Below, piece by piece: positions 2,143 through 11,771 of a stretch of DNA of 64,000 nt (positions are counted from its first letter, which is position 1; the number at the start of each line of letters is the position of its first letter). The translations under genes and the position numbers were made by a program. The notes under the pieces were generated by a model. It did no database searches and was not told where the DNA came from. It worked only from the letters and a program-made list of their open reading frames with translations. The DNA is from Escherichia coli (GTDB taxonomy: Bacteria; Pseudomonadota; Gammaproteobacteria; Enterobacterales; Enterobacteriaceae), in the NCBI RefSeq assembly GCF_003991155.1, contig NZ_CP031294.1; one strand, written 5' to 3'.

Positions 2143-5100
2143 TTAGTTACGTTGAGTGTTTGGGTTGAGTGATCCGCCAGGGCGTTTCTCTTGAGCGATA
2201 GTCTCAAGCGCGATTGCTTTCATCCGTTGAGCGGCATTGTTCCATATGCTTTCTGTATCGCCGGATTCAGTTGTGCTACCGTCACTATGGACGTTGATCT
2301 CAATTGATACAGGAGAAAGAACATTTCCTCCTCCACTCATACCATCGGTACTGAGCGTTACAGGGATTGTTCGACCATCAGGCAATGGAACATACGCCTC
2401 ATTCATATCGCCTTCCCCAAACAACGCCAATTGAGGTGAGTTGGCGATACCGCCTTTCTGGTATGCCCGGAGCGGGATCACGCCGTCTTTTCCGAATATG
2501 CCACCATTTGCAAACTTCGGAATTGCAGGAATACCATTCGTGCCATCGGCAGCAGAACTGGTCAGATTGTTGAACCCGGAAGTTGAGCCAGAAGAACCGG
2601 ACATCAATCCATCGAATCCACCACCAGCCCATACTGAAACCAAACCAGATGCAACTGTCGCGCCGAAATTCAACCACTTATTACCAGAGCCGGAAGCATT
2701 AGCTCCAAGCATTGCAAACGCGGCAGACAGAGCGCCGGTAACAGAGCTGAGGTTCTGCATCGAGAAGATGGAGTCCTTCACTGCTTTTGTCTCAGCATCT
2801 TTGGCTTCGGTGCTATTAAATAGCCCTGATACCCAGCTACCAATCGCATTTGTTGCTGTGCCAATTGCGCTGGTGGTCTGCTGTGTCGTTTGCCCCAATC
2901 CAGTTACCGAACTGGACGTCTCCTTCGTGGCTTCTCCTACCGACTTGTCGCCATTAACAGTGTTGCTTATGCGCACACCTTGATTGGCAACTGCGGAAGC
3001 AACCCCGGTGAGCAAATTACCACTCTGTGAACTACCAGCTGCGGTGGTTCCCATCCCCAACATGTTCATTAGAGGCAGCGTGATCTGCGACTTCACGACC
3101 ATATTGGTGATATCTTTCAAAATGGACTGAGATAGGCTGGAGAAGCTCATCTTCCCGTTAATAACGAAATCAGTCAGGACATCAGTTAAGCCACTAAACA
3201 AATCAGTCCAGGTGCTTTCGATCTGCTCTGCCAGATTTTCGTATTCCAGTGCCAACTTCTGCGTCGCAGTCCCCGTCTCTTTAATAAGCGCGGTATTGCC
3301 AGCAGCAATCAGTTGATTGATTTTCTTTGTATAAAGCGCCACAACTTTAGGATCAGACGCCTTATCACGAAGTTCTATCAACGCTTTGAGATTGCGGTTG
3401 TAGGTGTCTTCGAAATCAGCAACTTTCTCTTCGCGAGACGGCGTATAGCCAGCACTAATAATGGAATCCGCCTCCGGTGCCCAAGTGGAGATCATCTGCT
3501 CAACATTGCGGCGATTAAACATCTCACGATATTCAGGTGTCGCATTTTTGAGGTCTTCAAGACGTTTTTTCGCCTTGTCGATCATCTCTTGAGTGATGAA
3601 CTCGTTAGGAACCGCATTAGCCAAATCTGTCAGCGATTTCGTTGTATCGCGAAGAGACTGATCAAACGATACCGTAGCCTTAGAGCTTTCACCCATTTGC
3701 CCCATAAGCTGATCGGCTTTGTCCAGAGCCTTCTGGTATCCGGCTGCCAGTTTCTGTTGCGCTGCCTGTTCCTTCTTGGCCGCACGCTGCGAGGCGTTAG
3801 CTGATCGTTGGGCTGCTTTCTCGGCAGCTGCTGCATCCTGTTCACGAGCTTTAGTAAGTGCGGCAATGGCTGCGGCACGCTCTTCATCGCTCATTTTCTC
3901 CAGAGAGCTGGCACTGGATGCTTTCTGCAAATTAAGCTGCGTCTTGAGTTGTTTAGGCCCAATAATCGGCTTACCTTCGAAGTCCATCATCGGAGTGCCG
4001 TCAGGCAAAGTACGCTGATAAGTCGCAGAATCCATCTGGTTTCGCATATATTGCGCCAACGCCTTCTGAGCAGCTTTATCAGTTGTACCTAACCCAAGAA
4101 CAGTCCCCTGGTTTGACATTACGCCCTTACCAGTTTTGGCCGCGTTATCTCTCTCGAACTCTGCCTGAGTAAGTTCCTGAGCAACGGCTTCCAAATGCTC
4201 CTGATAACCACGAATACTGCCTTGCAGTTTCTGGATTTGCTCGGTATTGCCATCCTTTTTGGCTTTTTCAAGCTGATCATTAAGAGTCGCGATTTGCTTC
4301 TCGGTCGCATTCTTACGAGAAGAAAGTGAATCAACCAGTTTTTGCGCAGGCTCCAGATAGCTTTTGTTTACCGTTTCACGTAACGGTGCCAATAGCTTGT
4401 TCTTTTCGTCATCTGAAAGTGAACCGTCATCATTGATTTTCTGGATCTTATCCAGAGCCTCCTGCCGGGCTTTCACGAATGTTGCCGCGAAAATCTGGTT
4501 TTCCGCTCGAATTTTCTCAATCTGAGATTCGGCAGCCTCTTTAGCCAAACGCTTTGCTACAGCGCCGTCACCAAGAGCTATCGTGCCGGTTATCTTTTGA
4601 TACTCTTCCTGATTTTTTTTCAGGCGTGCTTCGATGTCAGCCTTCGACTCTTTGTGAGTAATAACACCGGCAGAGTTAGATACGTAATTAACACCCTCAC
4701 CAGTTTTTAATGCTCGTTGATCAGCAAGAATCTGCTTTTCGAGCTTTTCTGCGCGGTCGGCCATTTGTGCACGTTTGGCCGCCGTCATCGCCTCTGGTAT
4801 TTTCCTAATCTCGTCAACGACCTTTGAAGTTTCGCTGCGGAGCATGGTCATGTACGTGATTAGGCCAGCAACAGCTACAGTGGCAACTGTAAATGCTGCC
4901 CCTATAGGGTTTGCTGCAATGAACGCCGTTAATCCAGCAAAAGCGCCTTTAAGCCCCGTAATCGCCCCACGGATGGCGAAAATAAGAGAGGGGATCGGAG
5001 CCAGCCCCATACGTGCCGCACGATTGAATCGGGTTACTGCTGTAGCGCCGAGGTTAAATGGAGTCTGTATGGCGGTCGCCATCGTGGCAAAGGTGCTAAC

Positions 5101-6735
5101 CATCTGGCTGCCTGCGCCAACTACCCCCATGATCCCTGCTCGCATCAGTTTGAACGCAACCATCGCGGCCACGACCTTACCGAGATTAATTACCAGCTCT
5201 TGGTTCTTTGCTAACCATTGAGCAAGCTGACGCAACCCATCGATTGCCGTCGTTAACCCCGAGCCTAAAGAATTGGCAAACGAAATCCCTTCGGCGCTAT
5301 TCATGATTGAAGCCAGTTCTTTCATCCCCTTCGATAGAGAATCCAGATATCCGGCCTGACCAACCCGATCAGCAAATAACGTGAATGACGTCTGAAGTTG
5401 CGCCAGCGCACCTGTGTAGGTTTGCATCATGTCTTTCGCTGCGTTCTCATTCTCCGCACGCAGACCAACAAACATCAGAGACAACGCCTGTTTTGCCTCA
5501 ACCGTACCGCTGGCAACGGCTTTAGTCAGTTCCCCCATAGTGATGCCTGCGGCGTCTGCCATTGCCTGCATCGCGTTAGGAACGGCTTCACCTAATTGCT
5601 GACGTAGCTCTTCCATTGACACAACGCCCTTACCGGACATCTGCTGAACGGCCACAGCCGCACGTTTCAACAGCTCACTATCACCACCAAAACGAGCAAC
5701 GGAGTCCACCAGCGCCTTCAGAGAACCATCGGTTGGATCTAAGCCAGCAGAACGAAACTTCACGAAGGAATCTGTTAACGCCTGCATCGCGAACGGCGCA
5801 TTTTGCGCCATGTCTACGATGTACTTCATATCATCAGCGGCAGCCTGGCCCGGGTTGGACTTCTCCTTATTCAACCCTCGAAGCATCACCCGCATACGTT
5901 CCATTTCGGCCGCAGCTTCAACAATAGGCTTCTGCCACCCAAACATGATGTCAGTAACCGTTCTGGCTGCATCTCCGATCTCGCCAAGCAGGAAAATGTT
6001 GCCACGAAGGCCAGAGAACATACCTCCTTCGTTACTTTTACCGCTATGGCCAGAAGCGCCGCTACGCCGCCCGCTACCACCATCGCCACTTCCAGATGTA
6101 CGAACGCGTACCGGCTTGCTAATCAGTTGCTGACGTCCGATAACTTCGTCCATCTGCTCACGAACCTTTTTCAGTCCCTCGGCAGCCTGACTCGTTGTGA
6201 CACCCCAATTACTGAGTCGCTTCGTCGTGGTATTAAGGCGCGTATTCATGCCACTCACGGACGCAGAGGCTTCTTTGGCCTCCGTACCAAAGCGGCTTGC
6301 GCTTTTGCTTGCATAGGTCGCCCAATCAGAGAAATCATTTAGCTCTGATTGCACTTTACGTAATGACGCGGTGAGTTTATCTACTGAAGAAGTTGTCGTA
6401 TCGACGCGCTCAATCAGGGCTTTAAGACCAGAATTGAGGCTGGTGATGTTGCCACGCATTTTACGCGTAGCATCTGAAGCAAGCTCAAAACCGGCAGCTA
6501 CATCCTGTAGTTTATCTGCCGTAGAATCGAGCTTGCTTTCCAGAACGCCAATGATACGGGCGACCGAACCCAAAGAGCGTTCAAAGGTTTGGATTTTTTG
6601 AGCAGGCTTTGTTACCTGCTCACCAAATCGAGTAAGCAGTTTCCCCGCACGATCGATTGACGCTGTAAACTGTTTGTCTTCCAGCGACAGGATAAACTCT
6701 ACGTTTTGTGACATTCCCTTGTCATCCTCTGCCAA
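2143..6735 (-). CDS. tail tape measure protein
   Basis: 1530-aa ORF, long alpha-helical/coiled-coil Ala/Gln-rich regions, hydrophobic segments, located between G/GT chaperone and M/L/K genes. Confidence 0.85.
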   Translation of the reverse strand: MAEDDKGMSQNVEFILSLEDKQFTASIDRAGKLLTRFGEQVTKPAQKIQTFERSLGSVARIIGVLESKLDSTADKLQDVAAGFELASDATRKMRGNITSLNSGLKALIERVDTTTSSVDKLTASLRKVQSELNDFSDWATYASKSASRFGTEAKEASASVSGMNTRLNTTTKRLSNWGVTTSQAAEGLKKVREQMDEVIGRQQLISKPVRVRTSGSGDGGSGRRSGASGHSGKSNEGGMFSGLRGNIFLLGEIGDAARTVTDIMFGWQKPIVEAAAEMERMRVMLRGLNKEKSNPGQAAADDMKYIVDMAQNAPFAMQALTDSFVKFRSAGLDPTDGSLKALVDSVARFGGDSELLKRAAVAVQQMSGKGVVSMEELRQQLGEAVPNAMQAMADAAGITMGELTKAVASGTVEAKQALSLMFVGLRAENENAAKDMMQTYTGALAQLQTSFTLFADRVGQAGYLDSLSKGMKELASIMNSAEGISFANSLGSGLTTAIDGLRQLAQWLAKNQELVINLGKVVAAMVAFKLMRAGIMGVVGAGSQMVSTFATMATAIQTPFNLGATAVTRFNRAARMGLAPIPSLIFAIRGAITGLKGAFAGLTAFIAANPIGAAFTVATVAVAGLITYMTMLRSETSKVVDEIRKIPEAMTAAKRAQMADRAEKLEKQILADQRALKTGEGVNYVSNSAGVITHKESKADIEARLKKNQEEYQKITGTIALGDGAVAKRLAKEAAESQIEKIRAENQIFAATFVKARQEALDKIQKINDDGSLSDDEKNKLLAPLRETVNKSYLEPAQKLVDSLSSRKNATEKQIATLNDQLEKAKKDGNTEQIQKLQGSIRGYQEHLEAVAQELTQAEFERDNAAKTGKGVMSNQGTVLGLGTTDKAAQKALAQYMRNQMDSATYQRTLPDGTPMMDFEGKPIIGPKQLKTQLNLQKASSASSLEKMSDEERAAAIAALTKAREQDAAAAEKAAQRSANASQRAAKKEQAAQQKLAAGYQKALDKADQLMGQMGESSKATVSFDQSLRDTTKSLTDLANAVPNEFITQEMIDKAKKRLEDLKNATPEYREMFNRRNVEQMISTWAPEADSIISAGYTPSREEKVADFEDTYNRNLKALIELRDKASDPKVVALYTKKINQLIAAGNTALIKETGTATQKLALEYENLAEQIESTWTDLFSGLTDVLTDFVINGKMSFSSLSQSILKDITNMVVKSQITLPLMNMLGMGTTAAGSSQSGNLLTGVASAVANQGVRISNTVNGDKSVGEATKETSSSVTGLGQTTQQTTSAIGTATNAIGSWVSGLFNSTEAKDAETKAVKDSIFSMQNLSSVTGALSAAFAMLGANASGSGNKWLNFGATVASGLVSVWAGGGFDGLMSGSSGSTSGFNNLTSSAADGTNGIPAIPKFANGGIFGKDGVIPLRAYQKGGIANSPQLALFGEGDMNEAYVPLPDGRTIPVTLSTDGMSGGGNVLSPVSIEINVHSDGSTTESGDTESIWNNAAQRMKAIALETIAQEKRPGGSLNPNTQRN

Positions 6736-7108
6736 ATATTTGCATCAGTTGCTCTTTGGCGTCAGGGTCTGCCTTATCCTGGCTTGGATCGTAGACTTTA
6801 TCTGTTACGACTGGTCTTCCAATCCTGAGTTGCAAACCCTCCATGAACGCCTTCACAGCCTCGCCATCCGCCTGGGACGCACGAGCGACTTGTAAGTTGC
6901 GGACATCCTCTTCCGCACGCAGACGGTCTATATTGCGACTGAGCATCCAGAACATCGTGAGAGGAACGTTCAGTAGCTCTAATGGCGACACGGCGTAGTG
7001 AGCAACTACACGACTGAAATAGAATCCGAGATCTATTGAGACGGTCCTTGTCCCGGATTCATCGCGGGAAATTACTTTGCCCCTTCGCCAGCCGCTTTTT
7101 CGTTTTCT
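6722..7108 (-). CDS. tail assembly chaperone T-frame extension (putative -1 frameshift product GT)
   Basis: Frame is -1 relative to G ORF, open from 7108 down to stop at 6722, overlaps G 3' end and tape measure start; canonical arrangement upstream of tape measure. Confidence 0.5.
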   Translation of the reverse strand, partial: RKRKSGWRRGKVISRDESGTRTVSIDLGFYFSRVVAHYAVSPLELLNVPLTMFWMLSRNIDRLRAEEDVRNLQVARASQADGEAVKAFMEGLQLRIGRPVVTDKVYDPSQDKADPDAKEQLMQIFGRG

Positions 7109-7389
7109 TCATCAATCACTTCCATAGCGAAGGTGAAGATCTGCTGGAGTTGCGGAACAGTCAGTTTTTCAAGAACTTCGTCAGGTACTGAAGGGATAAC
7201 CTTACGAACCAGATCTGCATAAGCTGTCACTTGCTCAACAGGAGACATGTTCATGAGATCTTTGCCTTCCATCTGCTTGATGGAAACGAACAGACCTACC
7301 GTCATTTCAACGATGGGATATTCCTGACCGCCAAATTTGATGCTTTTCTTCGGAGGCAGAATGGAATCGAGATCGAGTAATTTGGTCAT
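7072..7389 (-). CDS. tail assembly chaperone (gpG-like)
   Basis: 105-aa acidic protein between major tail protein and tape measure genes; overlapped by -1 frame ORF. Confidence 0.6.
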   Translation of the reverse strand: MTKLLDLDSILPPKKSIKFGGQEYPIVEMTVGLFVSIKQMEGKDLMNMSPVEQVTAYADLVRKVIPSVPDEVLEKLTVPQLQQIFTFAMEVIDEENEKAAGEGAK

Positions 7390-7444: not shown

Positions 7445-8191
7445 TTAATCTGCGGGGTTAATCGTTACTGACTTAGTTGCCTTCTTACCACCGCTATTGC
7501 TGGTGAAGGAGATATTTGTAGAACCCTGCGCCACACCACGTACCAGACCCGTTTGATCTACCGTGGCCTTTTCCTGGTCTTCGGATTCCCAAACACCGGT
7601 TTTGTCTGCGGCATCAGCTGGAGTGATTTCGGCTGTCAGTTGCACAGTTTCTCCAGCTTTTACGGTTGGAGATTCCGGTGAGATCGACACAGTTTTTACC
7701 GGTTTAGGACCGCTCATTTTGCCCAGAACGCCTTCATCATCCGGGTATGCGCTGAACTGAACAGAGAACACACGAACATCATCAGACTGGTAGGTCATAG
7801 TGAAGTTGCCCGCGGTTGCCGCTTTCGGGATGGTCAACACATAGTCGGTGGTGTCCTGCGGAGTCAGAACCAGCTCCTTCGCCACATCAATCAGGTTAAC
7901 GCCCTGTGCAGATGTGATCGTGACAGAGTTGTCATCTTCGCTCAGAGTAGAACCAGGCATCAGGTCAACCATGTTTTGGAGTACAGACTCAGCCAGAGGC
8001 GCGGTGATGGTAATGTTGCGCCCCTGAACTAATTCGGAAATTACGGTCTGCCCCAACTGATCGACGGTGACTTTCAGCGTTTCAGTGGCTACTTCAACCT
8101 GAACACCACCTTTGGTGTAACCCAAATCCACACCACCAAACGACACCTTACAGGCACCAAGTTTGATGTTTTTTACATGGGTATTAGACAT
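7445..8191 (-). CDS. major tail protein with C-terminal Ig-like (Big_2) domain
   Basis: C-terminal segment ...VKAGETVQLTAEITPADAADKTGVWESEDQEKATVDQTGLVRGVAQGSTNISFTS is a Big_2-type Ig fold as in lambda gpV; start set at ATG 8189-8191 which has AAGGAG RBS (ORF track start 8227 lacks RBS). Confidence 0.7.
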   Translation of the reverse strand: MSNTHVKNIKLGACKVSFGGVDLGYTKGGVQVEVATETLKVTVDQLGQTVISELVQGRNITITAPLAESVLQNMVDLMPGSTLSEDDNSVTITSAQGVNLIDVAKELVLTPQDTTDYVLTIPKAATAGNFTMTYQSDDVRVFSVQFSAYPDDEGVLGKMSGPKPVKTVSISPESPTVKAGETVQLTAEITPADAADKTGVWESEDQEKATVDQTGLVRGVAQGSTNISFTSNSGGKKATKSVTINPAD

Positions 8192-8265
8192 TGATGGAAA
8201 ACTCCTTTTTCCGTTAATTCTACGCATTCATTGCGCTAATAGTAAGTATATACTTACTAATTGAG

Positions 8266-10850: not shown

Positions 10851-11771
10851 TTATTCCTGTGCAGCAGTGACTTCTACGGTCGCTGTCGCTTTGTGGCTAC
10901 CATCTTGGGTAGTAACCTCGATTGTGGCAGTACCAGCCGCAACGCCAGTTACAACACCGGTTTCGCTATCCACCGTTGCAAACTCGGTATTTTTGGATTC
11001 CCAAGTAACGGTTTTATTTGTTGCTCCTGCCGGCTCGACATTTGCGGTCAGCTGAACAGTTTTGTTTGCCTCAACGGTTGTGCTATTTGGGTCGATTTCG
11101 ACGCCGGTAACAGCCACAACAGGCGCAGTTACTTCCACCGTTGCAGTTCCCTTTTTGCTGCCATCTTGGGAAACGATCTCAATCGTCGCAGTGCCAACTT
11201 CTACACCAGTAACGTTCCCGCTCTGGTCTACCGTTGCCTTGTCTTCATTTTTGGAAGACCAAGTAACTGCCTTATTCGTCGCATTTGACGGCTGAACATT
11301 CGCTTTCAGACTGACTGATTTCCCTTTCTCAACAGAGGTTGAGTCTGGCGTTACCGTTACGGATTGAACGGCTACCGGATTTACGGTGACTTCCACTGAC
11401 GCGGAAAGCTGGGTTTCCTGATCAGTTGCGGTAATTTTCACTTTGCCTGGTGCTACGCCAGTTACTAATCCAGTGCCGTTGACGGTTGCAATTTGATCAT
11501 TGGCTGACTTCCAGGTGAATGAACTGGCACTCTTACCCATAGTAATACCTGCACTAAGTTGAACAGTTTTCCCAACCAAAACTGACGGTGAAGCCGGGGT
11601 TATGTTTACGGATTGGGAGAAGGGAACCGCCTGCAAACAAGCAGATAGCTGACTTTGTTGTCGCTCGGTTAAAGGTTCATCGGAGATAGAATTGGTAAAT
11701 CCGGCACGGCACATATGCCCCGTAAAATCCGAAAATGCCTCTTCCGTAATCTTCATCTTTTGTTCTGGCAT
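10851..11771 (-). CDS. Ig-like (three Big_2 repeats) protein, capsid decoration candidate
   Basis: Three tandem ~80-aa repeats with TV...G.V.G...G.ATI..T.DG motif typical of Big_2 domains; directly downstream of capsid gene. Confidence 0.55.
   Translation of the reverse strand: MPEQKMKITEEAFSDFTGHMCRAGFTNSISDEPLTERQQSQLSACLQAVPFSQSVNITPASPSVLVGKTVQLSAGITMGKSASSFTWKSANDQIATVNGTGLVTGVAPGKVKITATDQETQLSASVEVTVNPVAVQSVTVTPDSTSVEKGKSVSLKANVQPSNATNKAVTWSSKNEDKATVDQSGNVTGVEVGTATIEIVSQDGSKKGTATVEVTAPVVAVTGVEIDPNSTTVEANKTVQLTANVEPAGATNKTVTWESKNTEFATVDSETGVVTGVAAGTATIEVTTQDGSHKATATVEVTAAQE

What the first reader, a model, noticed from the sequence alone, without database searches (positions are those of the whole stretch)
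6722..7389. Probable programmed -1 frameshift in tail assembly chaperone (G/GT)
The T-frame is -1 relative to G and open from 7108; the shift must occur in GAAGAAAACGAAAAAGCGGCTGGCGAAGGGGCAAAG (about 7075-7108). No canonical X-XXY-YYZ heptamer is present, so the slippery site is atypical.
Basis: partly seen in the sequence, partly recalled or inferred. Interest (0 to 1): 0.35.

Follow-up and report, generated by a model that had tools for sequence, protein, structure and literature searches.

The report
Tail chaperone frameshift at A_AAG-stop
An SSU5-like phage-plasmid of E. coli almost certainly makes its long tail-assembly chaperone by a -1 ribosomal slip, an ordinary phage trick, but on a minimal A_AAG site next to the stop codon instead of the usual seven-base site, and no public record annotates it.

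Summary
On the minus strand, a 105-aa G-like ORF (7389..7072) lies between the tail-tube gene and the tape-measure gene. The -1 frame is open from 7108 to a stop at 6724..6722, and the overlap holds no in-frame X_XXY_YYZ heptamer.

The window is an SSU5-like phage-plasmid. Six distant homologues keep the same G / -1-frame T layout with canonical heptamers such as G_GGA_AAG and C_CCA_AAG. That confirms a lambda-type G/GT frameshift in this family.

In the SSU5 group, 79 of 79 relatives keep only one usable site: A_AAG as G's last codon, followed directly by TAA or TAG (7078..7072). In 28 of them a -1-frame TGA limits the shift to the last three codons. The upstream GAAAAAG is blocked or absent.

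T-frame protein conservation starts at the first codon after the slip, upstream of any start codon. A 16-bp hairpin (7066..7009) begins 8 nt after AAG. It shows compensatory changes and suppressed synonymous variation in its arms but not its loop, though it is not unusually stable.

Predicted products are G (11.7 kDa) and GT (24.8 kDa). Nothing here is experimentally shown. This is a known mechanism with a variant signal, so interest is modest.

The parts
7072..7389 (-). G-like tail assembly chaperone ORF, 105 aa, 11.7 kDa, acidic (pI 4.6). This is the zero-frame product.
   Evidence: ORF list and translation. phrog_893, E 4.5e-49, function unannotated. It lies between the tail-tube gene and the tape-measure gene. 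Mass and pI.
7075..7078 (-). Proposed slip site A_AAG: the last base of GCA (Ala104) plus AAG (Lys105). tRNA-Lys re-pairs from AAG (7077..7075) to AAA (7078..7076).
   Evidence: It is the only candidate kept in 79/79 SSU5-like loci (gcA AAG or gtA AAG). In 28 loci the -1 frame is open for only 9 nt before the next T codon. A_AAG is the most shift-prone tetramer in E. coli (PMC4066793).
7072..7074 (-). Zero-frame stop codon TAA directly 3' of the slip codon. It is a possible 'shifty stop' that leaves the A site waiting for a release factor.
   Evidence: It is TAA or TAG immediately after AAG in all 79 relatives. In distant homologues with heptamers the stop lies 3-27 nt away. Any role in slippage is inferred.
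6722..7075 (-). T-frame (-1) coding segment: 117 codons from GTA (7075..7073) plus the TGA stop. GT = join(7389..7075, 7075..6722), 222 aa, 24.8 kDa. Base 7075 is read twice.
   Evidence: Translation. phrog_1131, E 4.9e-40. tblastn homology in distant phages starts at fusion residue 108. Substitutions are synonymous-biased in this frame only.
7009..7066 (-). Candidate stimulatory hairpin. The outer helix is CGCGAU (7066..7061) with GUCGUG (7014..7009). The inner helix is GAAUCCGGGA (7060..7051) with UCUCGGAUUC (7031..7022). The apical loop is 7050..7032 and a 7-nt 3' internal loop UAUUUCA is 7021..7015. The hairpin starts 8 nt after AAG, which is 5 nt after the stop.
   Evidence: RNAfold and RNAalifold give the same structure. 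99.3% of cells are paired, 3 pairs show compensatory double changes, and 0/500 shuffles reach the covariation score. Synonymous diversity is 0.09 in the arms, 0.295 in the loop and 0.28 in the background. Caveat: the energy of -17.9 kcal/mol is not above shuffles, z = -0.48.
7095..7101 (-). It is at best a minor, lineage-specific secondary site (A_AAA tetramer), not the conserved one.
   Evidence: It is cut off from T by a -1-frame TGA (GGT GAA) in SSU5 and 28 of 79 loci, and it is replaced by GAAGCCGC in L087, L088 and L090.
7445..8227 (-). Upstream neighbour: tail-tube (major tail) protein with a C-terminal Big_2 Ig-like domain. By analogy with lambda it is the presumed partner of the T domain.
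   Evidence: Pfam Big_2, E 5.8e-26. phrog_1280 and several 'major tail protein' PHROGs.
2143..6714 (-). Downstream neighbour: tape-measure protein. Its ATG is at 6714..6712, 7 nt after T's stop, preceded by AAGGGA. By analogy it is the presumed partner of the G domain.
   Evidence: ORF. Relatives annotate it as tape-measure protein. Start position checked.

Best explanation
Genes G and T of this SSU5-like phage-plasmid are expressed as two products from one start codon, as in phage lambda.

Most ribosomes translate G (105 aa) and terminate at TAA. A small fraction slip back one base on A_AAG, the last sense codon. The single E. coli tRNA-Lys (anticodon mnm5s2UUU) leaves AAG (7077..7075) and re-pairs with AAA (7078..7076). 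The next codon read is then GTA, and translation continues in the T frame to 6722. The result is a 222-aa G-T fusion with the junction ...AAGEGAK-VISRDESG....

Two features probably raise the slip frequency. The first is a conserved 16-bp hairpin that starts 8 nt after AAG. That is canonical spacing, so it could impede translocation while tRNA-Lys sits in the A site. The second is the stop codon directly 3' of the slip codon. It would leave peptidyl-tRNA-Lys in the P site with an A site waiting for a release factor. Both routes give the same protein.

By analogy with lambda, G and the G part of GT would coat the tape-measure protein, and the T part would recruit the tail-tube protein.

Shown here: the frame arrangement, the confinement of the shift to the last three codons, conservation of A_AAG plus stop, T-frame coding selection from the junction onward, and the covarying hairpin.

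Inferred: that slippage occurs at all, its efficiency, the role of the hairpin and the stop, and the chaperone function.
For: 1. Frames: T is the -1 frame of G, open from 7108 to 6722.

2. Synteny: the order is tube gene, G, T, tape-measure gene.

3. Six distant homologues at about 25-30% identity have the same layout. Each carries a canonical in-frame heptamer just before T homology begins. They are hairong G_GGA_AAA, V1VFA-S G_GGA_AAG, RHEph10 and RHph_N1_10 G_GGA_AAC, BUCTxx99 A_AAA_AAA and nickie C_CCA_AAG.

4. In SSU5 itself, and in 28 of 79 IMG/VR relatives, a -1-frame TGA leaves only 9 nt of overlap. The shift must therefore occur at GGG, GCA or AAG, and only A_AAG allows cognate re-pairing.

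5. A_AAG plus TAA/TAG is invariant in 79/79 loci, down to 62% T identity. It persists through a GCA to GTA change, while the neighbouring codons vary (GGG, GAG or GAA).

6. Coding selection in the T frame starts at the junction. For window versus L081 there are 13 synonymous and 6 non-synonymous differences in the T frame, against 0 and 19 in the G frame. The conserved motif SIDLGFYFSRV lies upstream of any ATG, GTG or TTG in most relatives. The GTG used as the start in some annotations is GTA in the Klebsiella group.

7. Hairpin: 99.3% of cells paired, compensatory changes at 3 pairs, and 0/500 shuffles as good. RNAalifold finds it independently. Synonymous diversity is 0.09 in the arms, 0.295 in the loop and 0.28 in the background, Mann-Whitney p = 6e-4.

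8. Literature: A_AAG is the best -1 tetramer in E. coli, giving 5.6% with a strong stimulator but near background without one (PMC4066793). It is used productively in IS1222 and occurs in B. subtilis cdd (PMC5009743). [quoted passage not shown]

Against: There is no experimental evidence of a fusion protein for any member of this group.

Without a stimulator, A_AAG is barely above background in E. coli, so the model depends on stimulators that are only inferred.

The hairpin is not more stable than shuffled sequence (z = -0.48). Both of its arms encode conserved residues (RDES and DLGF..SRV). The 79 loci are phylogenetically related, so the shuffle statistics overstate independence.

The P-site tRNA-Ala cannot re-pair (GCA to GGC). 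The stop context is mostly UAA-U, which to my knowledge is an efficient terminator, so the stop is not obviously tuned for pausing. The upstream SD-like AAGGGG is not conserved and sits too close for -1 stimulation.

No Pfam tail-chaperone family matches G or T, and the structural matches are weak.
Confidence: 0.8

Rival explanations
1. T is an independent gene translated from its own internal start, as every public record annotates it: GTG at 6991, or an ATG about 36-45 codons into the T frame. In that case no frameshift is needed.
For: GenBank and RefSeq records annotate separate 'hypothetical proteins' of 74-89 aa. phrog_1131 begins at residue 45 of the open T frame, which reflects those gene calls.
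Against: The roughly 28-40 codons upstream of those starts are conserved as protein in the T frame. This includes the family's most conserved motif (I/V)D(L/F)xFxF(S/A)R, and it holds down to about 25% identity. The GTG is GTA in the Klebsiella group, and the first start codon differs between lineages. No Shine-Dalgarno-like sequence precedes any candidate start, judged from the sequence. Distant homologues have canonical slippery heptamers.
Confidence: 0.05
2. The frameshift is real but occurs mainly at the upstream GAA_AAA_G run (7101..7095). That could be an A_AAA tetramer slip or transcriptional slippage on the A run. The linker would then read ...NEK-SGWRRGK-VISR....
For: In this window and other E. 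coli-type and Klebsiella-type relatives, the -1 frame is open across this run, with 33 nt of overlap. A_AAA is weakly shift-prone in E. coli.
Against: In SSU5 and 28 of 79 relatives a -1-frame TGA follows the run, so a shift there would abort. In L087, L088 and L090 the run is gone. A_AAA ranks far below A_AAG. To my knowledge, five As are too few for efficient transcriptional slippage. The hairpin would lie 28 nt away, which is outside stimulatory spacing.
Confidence: 0.05
3. The T frame is reached by another recoding route at the stop codon. Possibilities are termination followed by reinitiation at a near-cognate codon (for example ATT at 7072..7070), or a +2 shift or hop rather than a -1 slip.
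For: The stop lies exactly at the frame junction. The T-frame codon after GTA is ATT in many members.
Against: That codon varies (ATT, GTT, ATA, GAA), so no start-like codon is conserved. There is no Shine-Dalgarno sequence in a suitable position. No matching landing codon exists for a hop. Distant relatives use standard -1 heptamers well before their stops.
Confidence: 0.03
4. The arrangement is a relic. SSU5-like elements lost the canonical heptamer and no longer make GT, and T is decaying or dispensable.
For: The canonical heptamer is absent. Many of these elements live mainly as plasmids.
Against: The T frame is under clear purifying selection with no stops in 79 of 79 relatives. SSU5 is a plaque-forming phage, which I state from my own knowledge of the literature; no tool result here bears on it. 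Cyrano virions are produced (PMC9928086). A_AAG plus stop and the hairpin are conserved at synonymous sites.
Confidence: 0.02

Closest known systems
Phage lambda gpG/gpGT tail assembly chaperone frameshift (Levin, Hendrix & Casjens 1993; Xu, Hendrix & Duda 2004, 2013, 2014; as summarised in PMC5009743)
   Same: There are two ORFs between the major tail gene and the tape-measure gene. The second is in the -1 frame, overlaps the end of the first and has no start of its own. The slip occurs on a tRNA-Lys AAG codon near G's stop. The short product is expected to be abundant and the fusion rare.
   Different: Lambda slips on the tandem heptamer G_GGA_AAG. Here only the tetramer A_AAG is present, because tRNA-Ala on GCA cannot re-pair. 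Here the slip codon is the very last sense codon, and a covarying hairpin follows at canonical spacing. There is no detectable sequence similarity to a Pfam tail-chaperone family.
IS1222 transposase (G_CGA_AAG) and B. subtilis cdd (A_CGA_AAG) -1 frameshifting on A_AAG (PMC5009743), plus the E. coli tetramer survey (PMC4066793)
   Same: The minimal Z_ZZN site is A_AAG, where only the Lys tRNA re-pairs and the preceding codon is non-slippery. The site depends on an extra stimulator. It fits a bacterial host whose single tRNA-Lys(UUU) reads AAG weakly.
   Different: Those sites sit in a transposase and a deaminase, not in a phage tail chaperone. The preceding codon there is CGA rather than GCA or GTA. 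The cdd site uses an upstream SD-like stimulator, and no conserved SD-like element is found here. In the present case the zero-frame stop is directly adjacent.
E. coli dnaX (A_AAA_AAG with an upstream SD-like element and a downstream stem-loop) (PMC6771820)
   Same: The slip involves tRNA-Lys on AAG and there is a downstream stem-loop. [quoted passage not shown]
   Different: dnaX has a full heptamer, an SD-like element and very high efficiency, and its -1 product is the shorter one. Here the site is a tetramer, the expected level is low and the -1 product is the longer one.
'Shifty stop' P-site frameshifting (Weiss et al. 1987; prfB CUU_UGA +1, discussed in PMC10885494)
   Same: A stop codon in the A site lies directly 3' of a slippery P-site codon.
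   Different: The well-known natural cases shift +1. The direction here must be -1. Dependence on release factors is untested, and the UAA-U context is not a weak terminator.
HK97 tail assembly chaperone structure 2ob9, and annotated frameshifted chaperones such as Arthrobacter phage Kitkat
   Different: The scores are marginal and the model has only moderate confidence (pLDDT 71, from an 11-sequence alignment). There is no sequence-level relationship.

Membership tests
Lambda-type G/GT tail assembly chaperone frameshift | Two small ORFs located between the major tail (tube) gene and the tape-measure gene | tested here: met
   The tube gene is 8227..7445 (Big_2, major-tail PHROGs), G is 7389..7072, T ends at 6722, and the tape-measure gene starts at 6714.
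Lambda-type G/GT tail assembly chaperone frameshift | The second ORF is in the -1 frame, overlaps the 3' end of the first, and has no conserved start codon or ribosome-binding site of its own | tested here: met
   The -1 frame is open from 7108. The first T-frame start codon varies between lineages and lies 28-40 codons into conserved sequence. No SD-like sequence is seen in the sequence.
Lambda-type G/GT tail assembly chaperone frameshift | A canonical X_XXY_YYZ slippery heptamer in the G frame within the overlap | tested here: not met
   There is none in 7110..7072, and none in any of 28 unique SSU5-like junctions. All six distant homologues examined do have one.
Lambda-type G/GT tail assembly chaperone frameshift | The arrangement is conserved across diverged homologues, with protein-level selection on the T frame from the junction onward | tested here: met
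Lambda-type G/GT tail assembly chaperone frameshift | Sequence or fold relationship to characterised tail assembly chaperones | tested here: inconclusive
Lambda-type G/GT tail assembly chaperone frameshift | G and GT are made at a fixed ratio of about 30:1. Both are needed for tail assembly and both are absent from virions. G binds the tape-measure protein and T binds the tube protein. | not testable with these tools
   This needs protein detection, genetics and binding assays. The lambda facts come from PMC5009743.
Tetranucleotide A_AAG -1 frameshift sites (IS1222 / cdd type) | An in-frame A_AAG inside the 0/-1 overlap, where tRNA-Lys can re-pair cognately on AAA | tested here: met
   The site is 7078..7075. 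It is the only such site conserved in 79 of 79 relatives.
Tetranucleotide A_AAG -1 frameshift sites (IS1222 / cdd type) | A stimulatory element: a downstream structure 5-9 nt away, or an upstream SD-like sequence 10-14 nt away | tested here: inconclusive
   A hairpin 8 nt downstream shows covariation and suppressed synonymous-site variation, but its energy is not above shuffles. No conserved upstream SD-like element is found. Stimulation itself was not measured.
Tetranucleotide A_AAG -1 frameshift sites (IS1222 / cdd type) | The host decodes AAG with a single tRNA-Lys (UUU anticodon) | not tested
   This is established for E. coli and about half of bacteria (PMC5009743). The element itself encodes no tRNA within this window.
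Shifty-stop (P-site slip with a stop codon in the A site) | A zero-frame stop codon immediately 3' of the slippery codon | tested here: met
   TAA or TAG follows AAG directly in 79 of 79 relatives.
Shifty-stop (P-site slip with a stop codon in the A site) | Frameshift level responds to release-factor activity or stop-codon context | not testable with these tools
   This needs reporter assays with RF1/RF2 titration or replacement of the stop by a sense codon.

The most novel reading that the evidence does not exclude
SSU5-like phage-plasmids have replaced the ancestral tandem slippery heptamer of their tail chaperone gene with a minimal three-part signal: A_AAG, an obligatorily adjacent stop codon, and a hairpin. 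In this reading the stop codon is itself a working part of a -1 frameshift site. The G:GT ratio, and so tail assembly, would then depend on how fast release factors act in the host. To my knowledge a natural -1 'shifty stop' has not been described for phage tail genes.
Probability: 0.3. Interest if true: 0.5.

Novelty: new variant of a known kind. Interest (0 to 1): 0.35.

Why it matters
**Annotation.** The locus sits on plasmids in 231 of 5,426 complete E. coli genomes. It also occurs in Salmonella, Klebsiella, Cronobacter, Citrobacter and Enterobacter elements. Every record calls the two ORFs 'hypothetical'. Every record also leaves about 80-125 nt of real coding sequence unannotated. The PHROG families 893 and 1131 could be named tail assembly chaperone G and T.

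**Recoding.** Productive use of a bare A_AAG tetramer is documented mainly in insertion sequences. Here one protein family uses canonical heptamers in some lineages and tetramer plus stop plus hairpin in another. That gives a natural comparison for asking how much each element contributes, and the cassette is short enough for simple reporter assays.

**Prediction tools.** Frameshift finders that require a heptamer will miss this class.

The biology of G/GT itself is well known, so the gain is incremental.

Tried and rejected
- **Small stem next to the stop.** I first considered the stem UCCCG(N10)CGGGA as the stimulator. It is absent in L087, L088 and L090 and is superseded by the longer covarying hairpin.
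- **Upstream SD-like AAGGGG.** This is rejected as a stimulator. It varies (GGG, GAG, GAA) and lies only 2 nt from the slip codon.
- **GAAAAAG as the main site.** This is rejected by the -1-frame TGA in SSU5 and others, and by its loss in distant SSU5-like members.
- **Slips on GGG or GCA.** The shifted codons AGG and GGC give no cognate re-pairing.
- **Pfam and solved structures.** These gave nothing meaningful. The only PDB sequence 'hit' was a cytochrome c555 trimer, which is spurious. Foldseek against PDB gave nothing below E = 0.8.
- **Profile scan for distant relatives.** A profile-based scan of viral contigs for intermediate relatives failed because the distant alignment has no stretch conserved enough.
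- **Protein database search with T.** This returned only close relatives, all unnamed.
- **Xu et al. 2004.** The paper is not held in the library. I therefore could not check whether any A_AAG chaperone site is listed there.
- **Rfam and tRNA scans.** Both were empty for the window.
- **Promoters and terminators.** The scan found no terminator between G and T. It found one promoter-like match, which is no more than shuffled sequence gives.
Full report
**What is there.**
All relevant genes read on the minus strand. A tail-tube gene with a C-terminal Big_2 domain occupies 8227..7445. A 105-aa ORF, here called G, follows at 7389..7072. Then comes a stretch that public records treat as non-coding, then a short 'hypothetical' ORF ending at 6722. 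The tape-measure gene starts at 6714.

Translating all three frames shows that the frame -1 relative to G has TGA TGA at 7114..7109. After that it is open for 128 codons, to TGA at 6724..6722. Reading every in-frame heptamer of the overlap confirms that none has the X_XXY_YYZ form.

**Where the window comes from.**
The segment is 100% identical to Escherichia phage CMS-2020a. It is 99.8% identical to phage-plasmid Cyrano of E. coli LF82 and about 89% identical to Salmonella phage SSU5. It is therefore the tail module of an SSU5-like phage-plasmid.

The same locus is on plasmids in 231 of 5,426 complete E. coli genomes. In every record I opened, G and T are separate 'hypothetical proteins'. T is started at an internal GTG or ATG, and no frameshift is annotated. 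These records are Cyrano, SSU5, a Klebsiella phage, PhiR41_1 and two RefSeq plasmids.

G matches phrog_893 and T matches phrog_1131. Both families have unknown function, and neither ORF matches a Pfam family. The literature searches found no mention of a frameshift or chaperone for SSU5 or Cyrano.

**Evidence that this is a G/GT frameshift.**
A tblastn search with the hypothetical fusion found distant relatives at about 25-30% identity. They are roughly 110-kb phages of Pseudomonas, Rhizobium and Stenotrophomonas. In several of them the T-frame match begins at fusion residue 108, which is three residues after the proposed junction.

I opened six of these loci. In all six, the T homologue is in the -1 frame of the G homologue, between a tube gene and a tape-measure gene. 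In all six, a canonical slippery heptamer lies in the G frame just before T homology starts:

| Phage | Heptamer |
|---|---|
| hairong | G_GGA_AAA |
| V1VFA-S | G_GGA_AAG (lambda's own site) |
| RHEph10 | G_GGA_AAC |
| RHph_N1_10 | G_GGA_AAC |
| BUCTxx99 | A_AAA_AAA |
| nickie | C_CCA_AAG |

The fused proteins align across the junction. The most conserved T motif, (I/V)D(L/F)xFxF(S/A)R, follows it closely. This is the signature of the lambda gpG/gpGT system (PMC5009743).

**Where the shift occurs in the SSU5 group.**
SSU5 itself has GGT GAA where the window has GGC GAA. That creates a TGA in the -1 frame and leaves only AGG GGC AAA open before GTA.

A scan of IMG/VR returned 80 loci. I left out L080, which lacks the junction, so 79 were analysed; they give 28 distinct junction sequences. 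They show the following:
- In 28 loci the -1 frame is open for only 9 nt upstream of the first post-junction codon.
- In three loci (L087, L088, L090) the GAAAAAG run is replaced by GAAGCCGC.
- In all 79 loci, G ends with NNA AAG followed directly by TAA or TAG. The forms are gcA AAG TAA, gcA AAG TAG and, in the most distant member at 62% identity, gtA AAG TAG.

The preceding codon varies (GGG, GAG, GAA). The shift is therefore confined to the last three sense codons. Of these, only A_AAG lets the tRNA re-pair cognately, from AAG to AAA. In window coordinates the site is 7078..7075 and the stop is 7074..7072.

As a chance estimate, in-frame A_AAG occurs in 91 of 18,513 codons of long ORFs in this window. 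None of 60 ORFs of at least 150 aa ends in A_AAG plus stop.

**Evidence against independent translation of T.**
Between the junction and the first annotated start, differences between relatives are biased towards synonymous changes in the T frame only. Window versus L081 gives 13 synonymous and 6 non-synonymous in the T frame, against 0 and 19 in the G frame. Window versus L041 gives 6 and 3 against 0 and 10.

Most relatives have no ATG, GTG or TTG before codon 28-40 of the T frame. That is downstream of the conserved SIDLGFYFSRVVAHY segment. The GTG used as a start in some E. coli-type records is GTA in the Klebsiella group. No Shine-Dalgarno-like sequence precedes any of these candidate starts. 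No terminator-like site separates G and T.

**A candidate stimulator.**
Single-sequence folding of all 28 junctions kept returning one hairpin. Its elements are:
- an outer helix, CGCGAU (7066..7061) paired with GUCGUG (7014..7009);
- an inner helix, GAAUCCGGGA (7060..7051) paired with UCUCGGAUUC (7031..7022);
- a 19-nt apical loop;
- a 7-nt internal loop on the 3' side.

The hairpin starts 8 nt after AAG, which is 5 nt after the stop. That spacing falls in the usual 5-9 nt range whether AAG is in the A site or the P site at the moment of slippage.

On the 28-sequence alignment, 99.3% of pair cells are standard pairs. Three pairs show double compensatory changes: U-A to G-C, G-C to A-U and A-U to G-C, the last in three separate lineages. 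None of 500 shuffles reaches the observed covariation score. Sliding the 3' partners drops pairing to 20-55%. RNAalifold predicts the same helices independently.

A synonymous-site analysis over the whole G-T region gave these mean pairwise synonymous diversities:

| Region | Diversity |
|---|---|
| Hairpin arms | 0.09 |
| Apical loop | 0.295 |
| Rest of G and T (background) | 0.28 |
| Slip-proximal codons | 0.12 |

The arms differ from the background at Mann-Whitney p = 6e-4. Only 4 of 198 windows of equal size are as low.

There are caveats. The hairpin energy of -17.9 kcal/mol is not better than shuffled sequence, z = -0.48. The arms encode conserved residues. The sequences are related, so the statistics are not independent. 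I rate the hairpin as a probable but unproven stimulator.

**Mechanism.**
In E. coli, A_AAG is by far the most shift-prone tetramer. It gives 5.6% frameshifting with a strong pseudoknot but stays near background without a stimulator (PMC4066793). It is used productively by IS1222 at G_CGA_AAG, and it occurs in B. subtilis cdd at A_CGA_AAG (PMC5009743).

Two kinetic routes for -1 slippage are established. One is slippage during translocation, which is promoted by a downstream structure. The other is slippage of a single P-site tRNA while the A site is vacant (PMC6771820).

Both routes fit here. The hairpin is placed for the first. The stop codon directly after AAG could provide the waiting A site for the second. 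Both yield the same 222-aa, 24.8-kDa product with the junction ...AAGEGAK-VISRDESG....

The stop is adjacent in 79 of 79 SSU5-like members. In heptamer-using relatives it lies 3-27 nt away. This suggests the stop matters, but shared ancestry could explain it too. The common UAA-U context is not a weak terminator.

**Is G a tail assembly chaperone?**
Position and architecture say yes. Sequence methods are silent.

**Verdict.**
The finding is an ordinary kind of phage recoding, the G/GT frameshift. It occurs in a family where it has not been annotated, and it uses a non-canonical signal: the A_AAG tetramer as the last sense codon, an adjacent stop, and a covarying hairpin. I can now place that signal within 7 nt.

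I put about 0.9 on a G/GT frameshift existing here and about 0.8 on the full statement that it occurs at A_AAG. I put about 0.55 on the hairpin being stimulatory and about 0.3-0.4 on the stop codon contributing. No experimental data exist for any of this.

Noticed in passing
window 6992-7071 (minus strand), and the same stretch in L001-L004, L091, L092: Public records (GenBank, ENA, RefSeq PGAP) leave 80-125 nt between G's stop and the annotated start of T as intergenic. That stretch encodes the most conserved part of the T domain. The annotated starts differ between records: GTG at 6991, or ATGs 36-45 codons into the frame.
   Followed up: yes
window 7069-7076 paired with 7001-7006 (alignment A1 columns 5-10 with 78-83): RNAalifold adds a third, outermost helix, AGUAAU with AGUUGC(U). 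It would sequester the G of AAG and the stop codon. One pair covaries with the TAA/TAG polymorphism (A-U 23, G-U 4, G-C 1). It cannot exist while a ribosome sits on the slip site, so its meaning is unclear.
   Followed up: partly
window 7015-7021 (minus strand, UAUUUCA), within codons TTC TAT TTC AGT CGT at 7024-7010: The 7-nt internal loop of the hairpin and the five codons around it (F Y F S R) show no synonymous change at all in 58 distinct sequences, including members at 62-69% identity. This is stronger conservation than base pairing alone explains, and I found no pseudoknot partner.
   Followed up: partly
L081-L086 (IMG/VR relatives, about 82% T identity), locus positions about 1225-1235: This sub-lineage has a 3-nt insertion (one extra codon) placed in the apical region of the hairpin, leaving both helices intact. 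It also has an incidental ATG at T codon 9.
   Followed up: no
window 7445-8227 (minus strand): The tail-tube protein carries a C-terminal Big_2 Ig-like domain (Pfam E 5.8e-26). The mechanical ORF call starts 12 codons upstream of the start annotated in Cyrano and SSU5 (747-nt gene).
   Followed up: partly
window 10851-11771 (minus strand): A 306-aa ORF appears, judged by eye from the translation, to consist of three tandem Ig-like (Big_2-type) repeats. The recurring motif is VTV(T/N)P...V..GK(T/S)V.L.A.V.P..ATNK.VTW.S. It is possibly a capsid decoration protein and was not scanned against any library.
   Followed up: no
window 6712-6735 (minus strand): The ORF lister starts the tape-measure ORF at a TTG (6735) that overlaps the end of T. 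The start annotated in relatives is the ATG at 6714..6712, 7 nt after T's TGA and preceded by AAGGGA. That placement suggests G/GT and the tape-measure gene are translated from one tightly packed message.
   Followed up: partly
window 1-64000: No tRNA or tmRNA genes were found, and no Rfam family reached its gathering score on either strand. The element brings no tRNA-Lys of its own in this window and must rely on the host's.
   Followed up: yes
L005, L009, L008 (hairong, nickie, BUCTxx99), just 3' of their heptamers: Distant relatives that use canonical heptamers also have small hairpins 5-8 nt downstream, for example GUCGAG-GCG-CUCGAC in nickie and ACCGGAG-ACU-CCGGU in BUCTxx99. These are not homologous to the SSU5-group hairpin, and their conservation was not tested.
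   Followed up: partly
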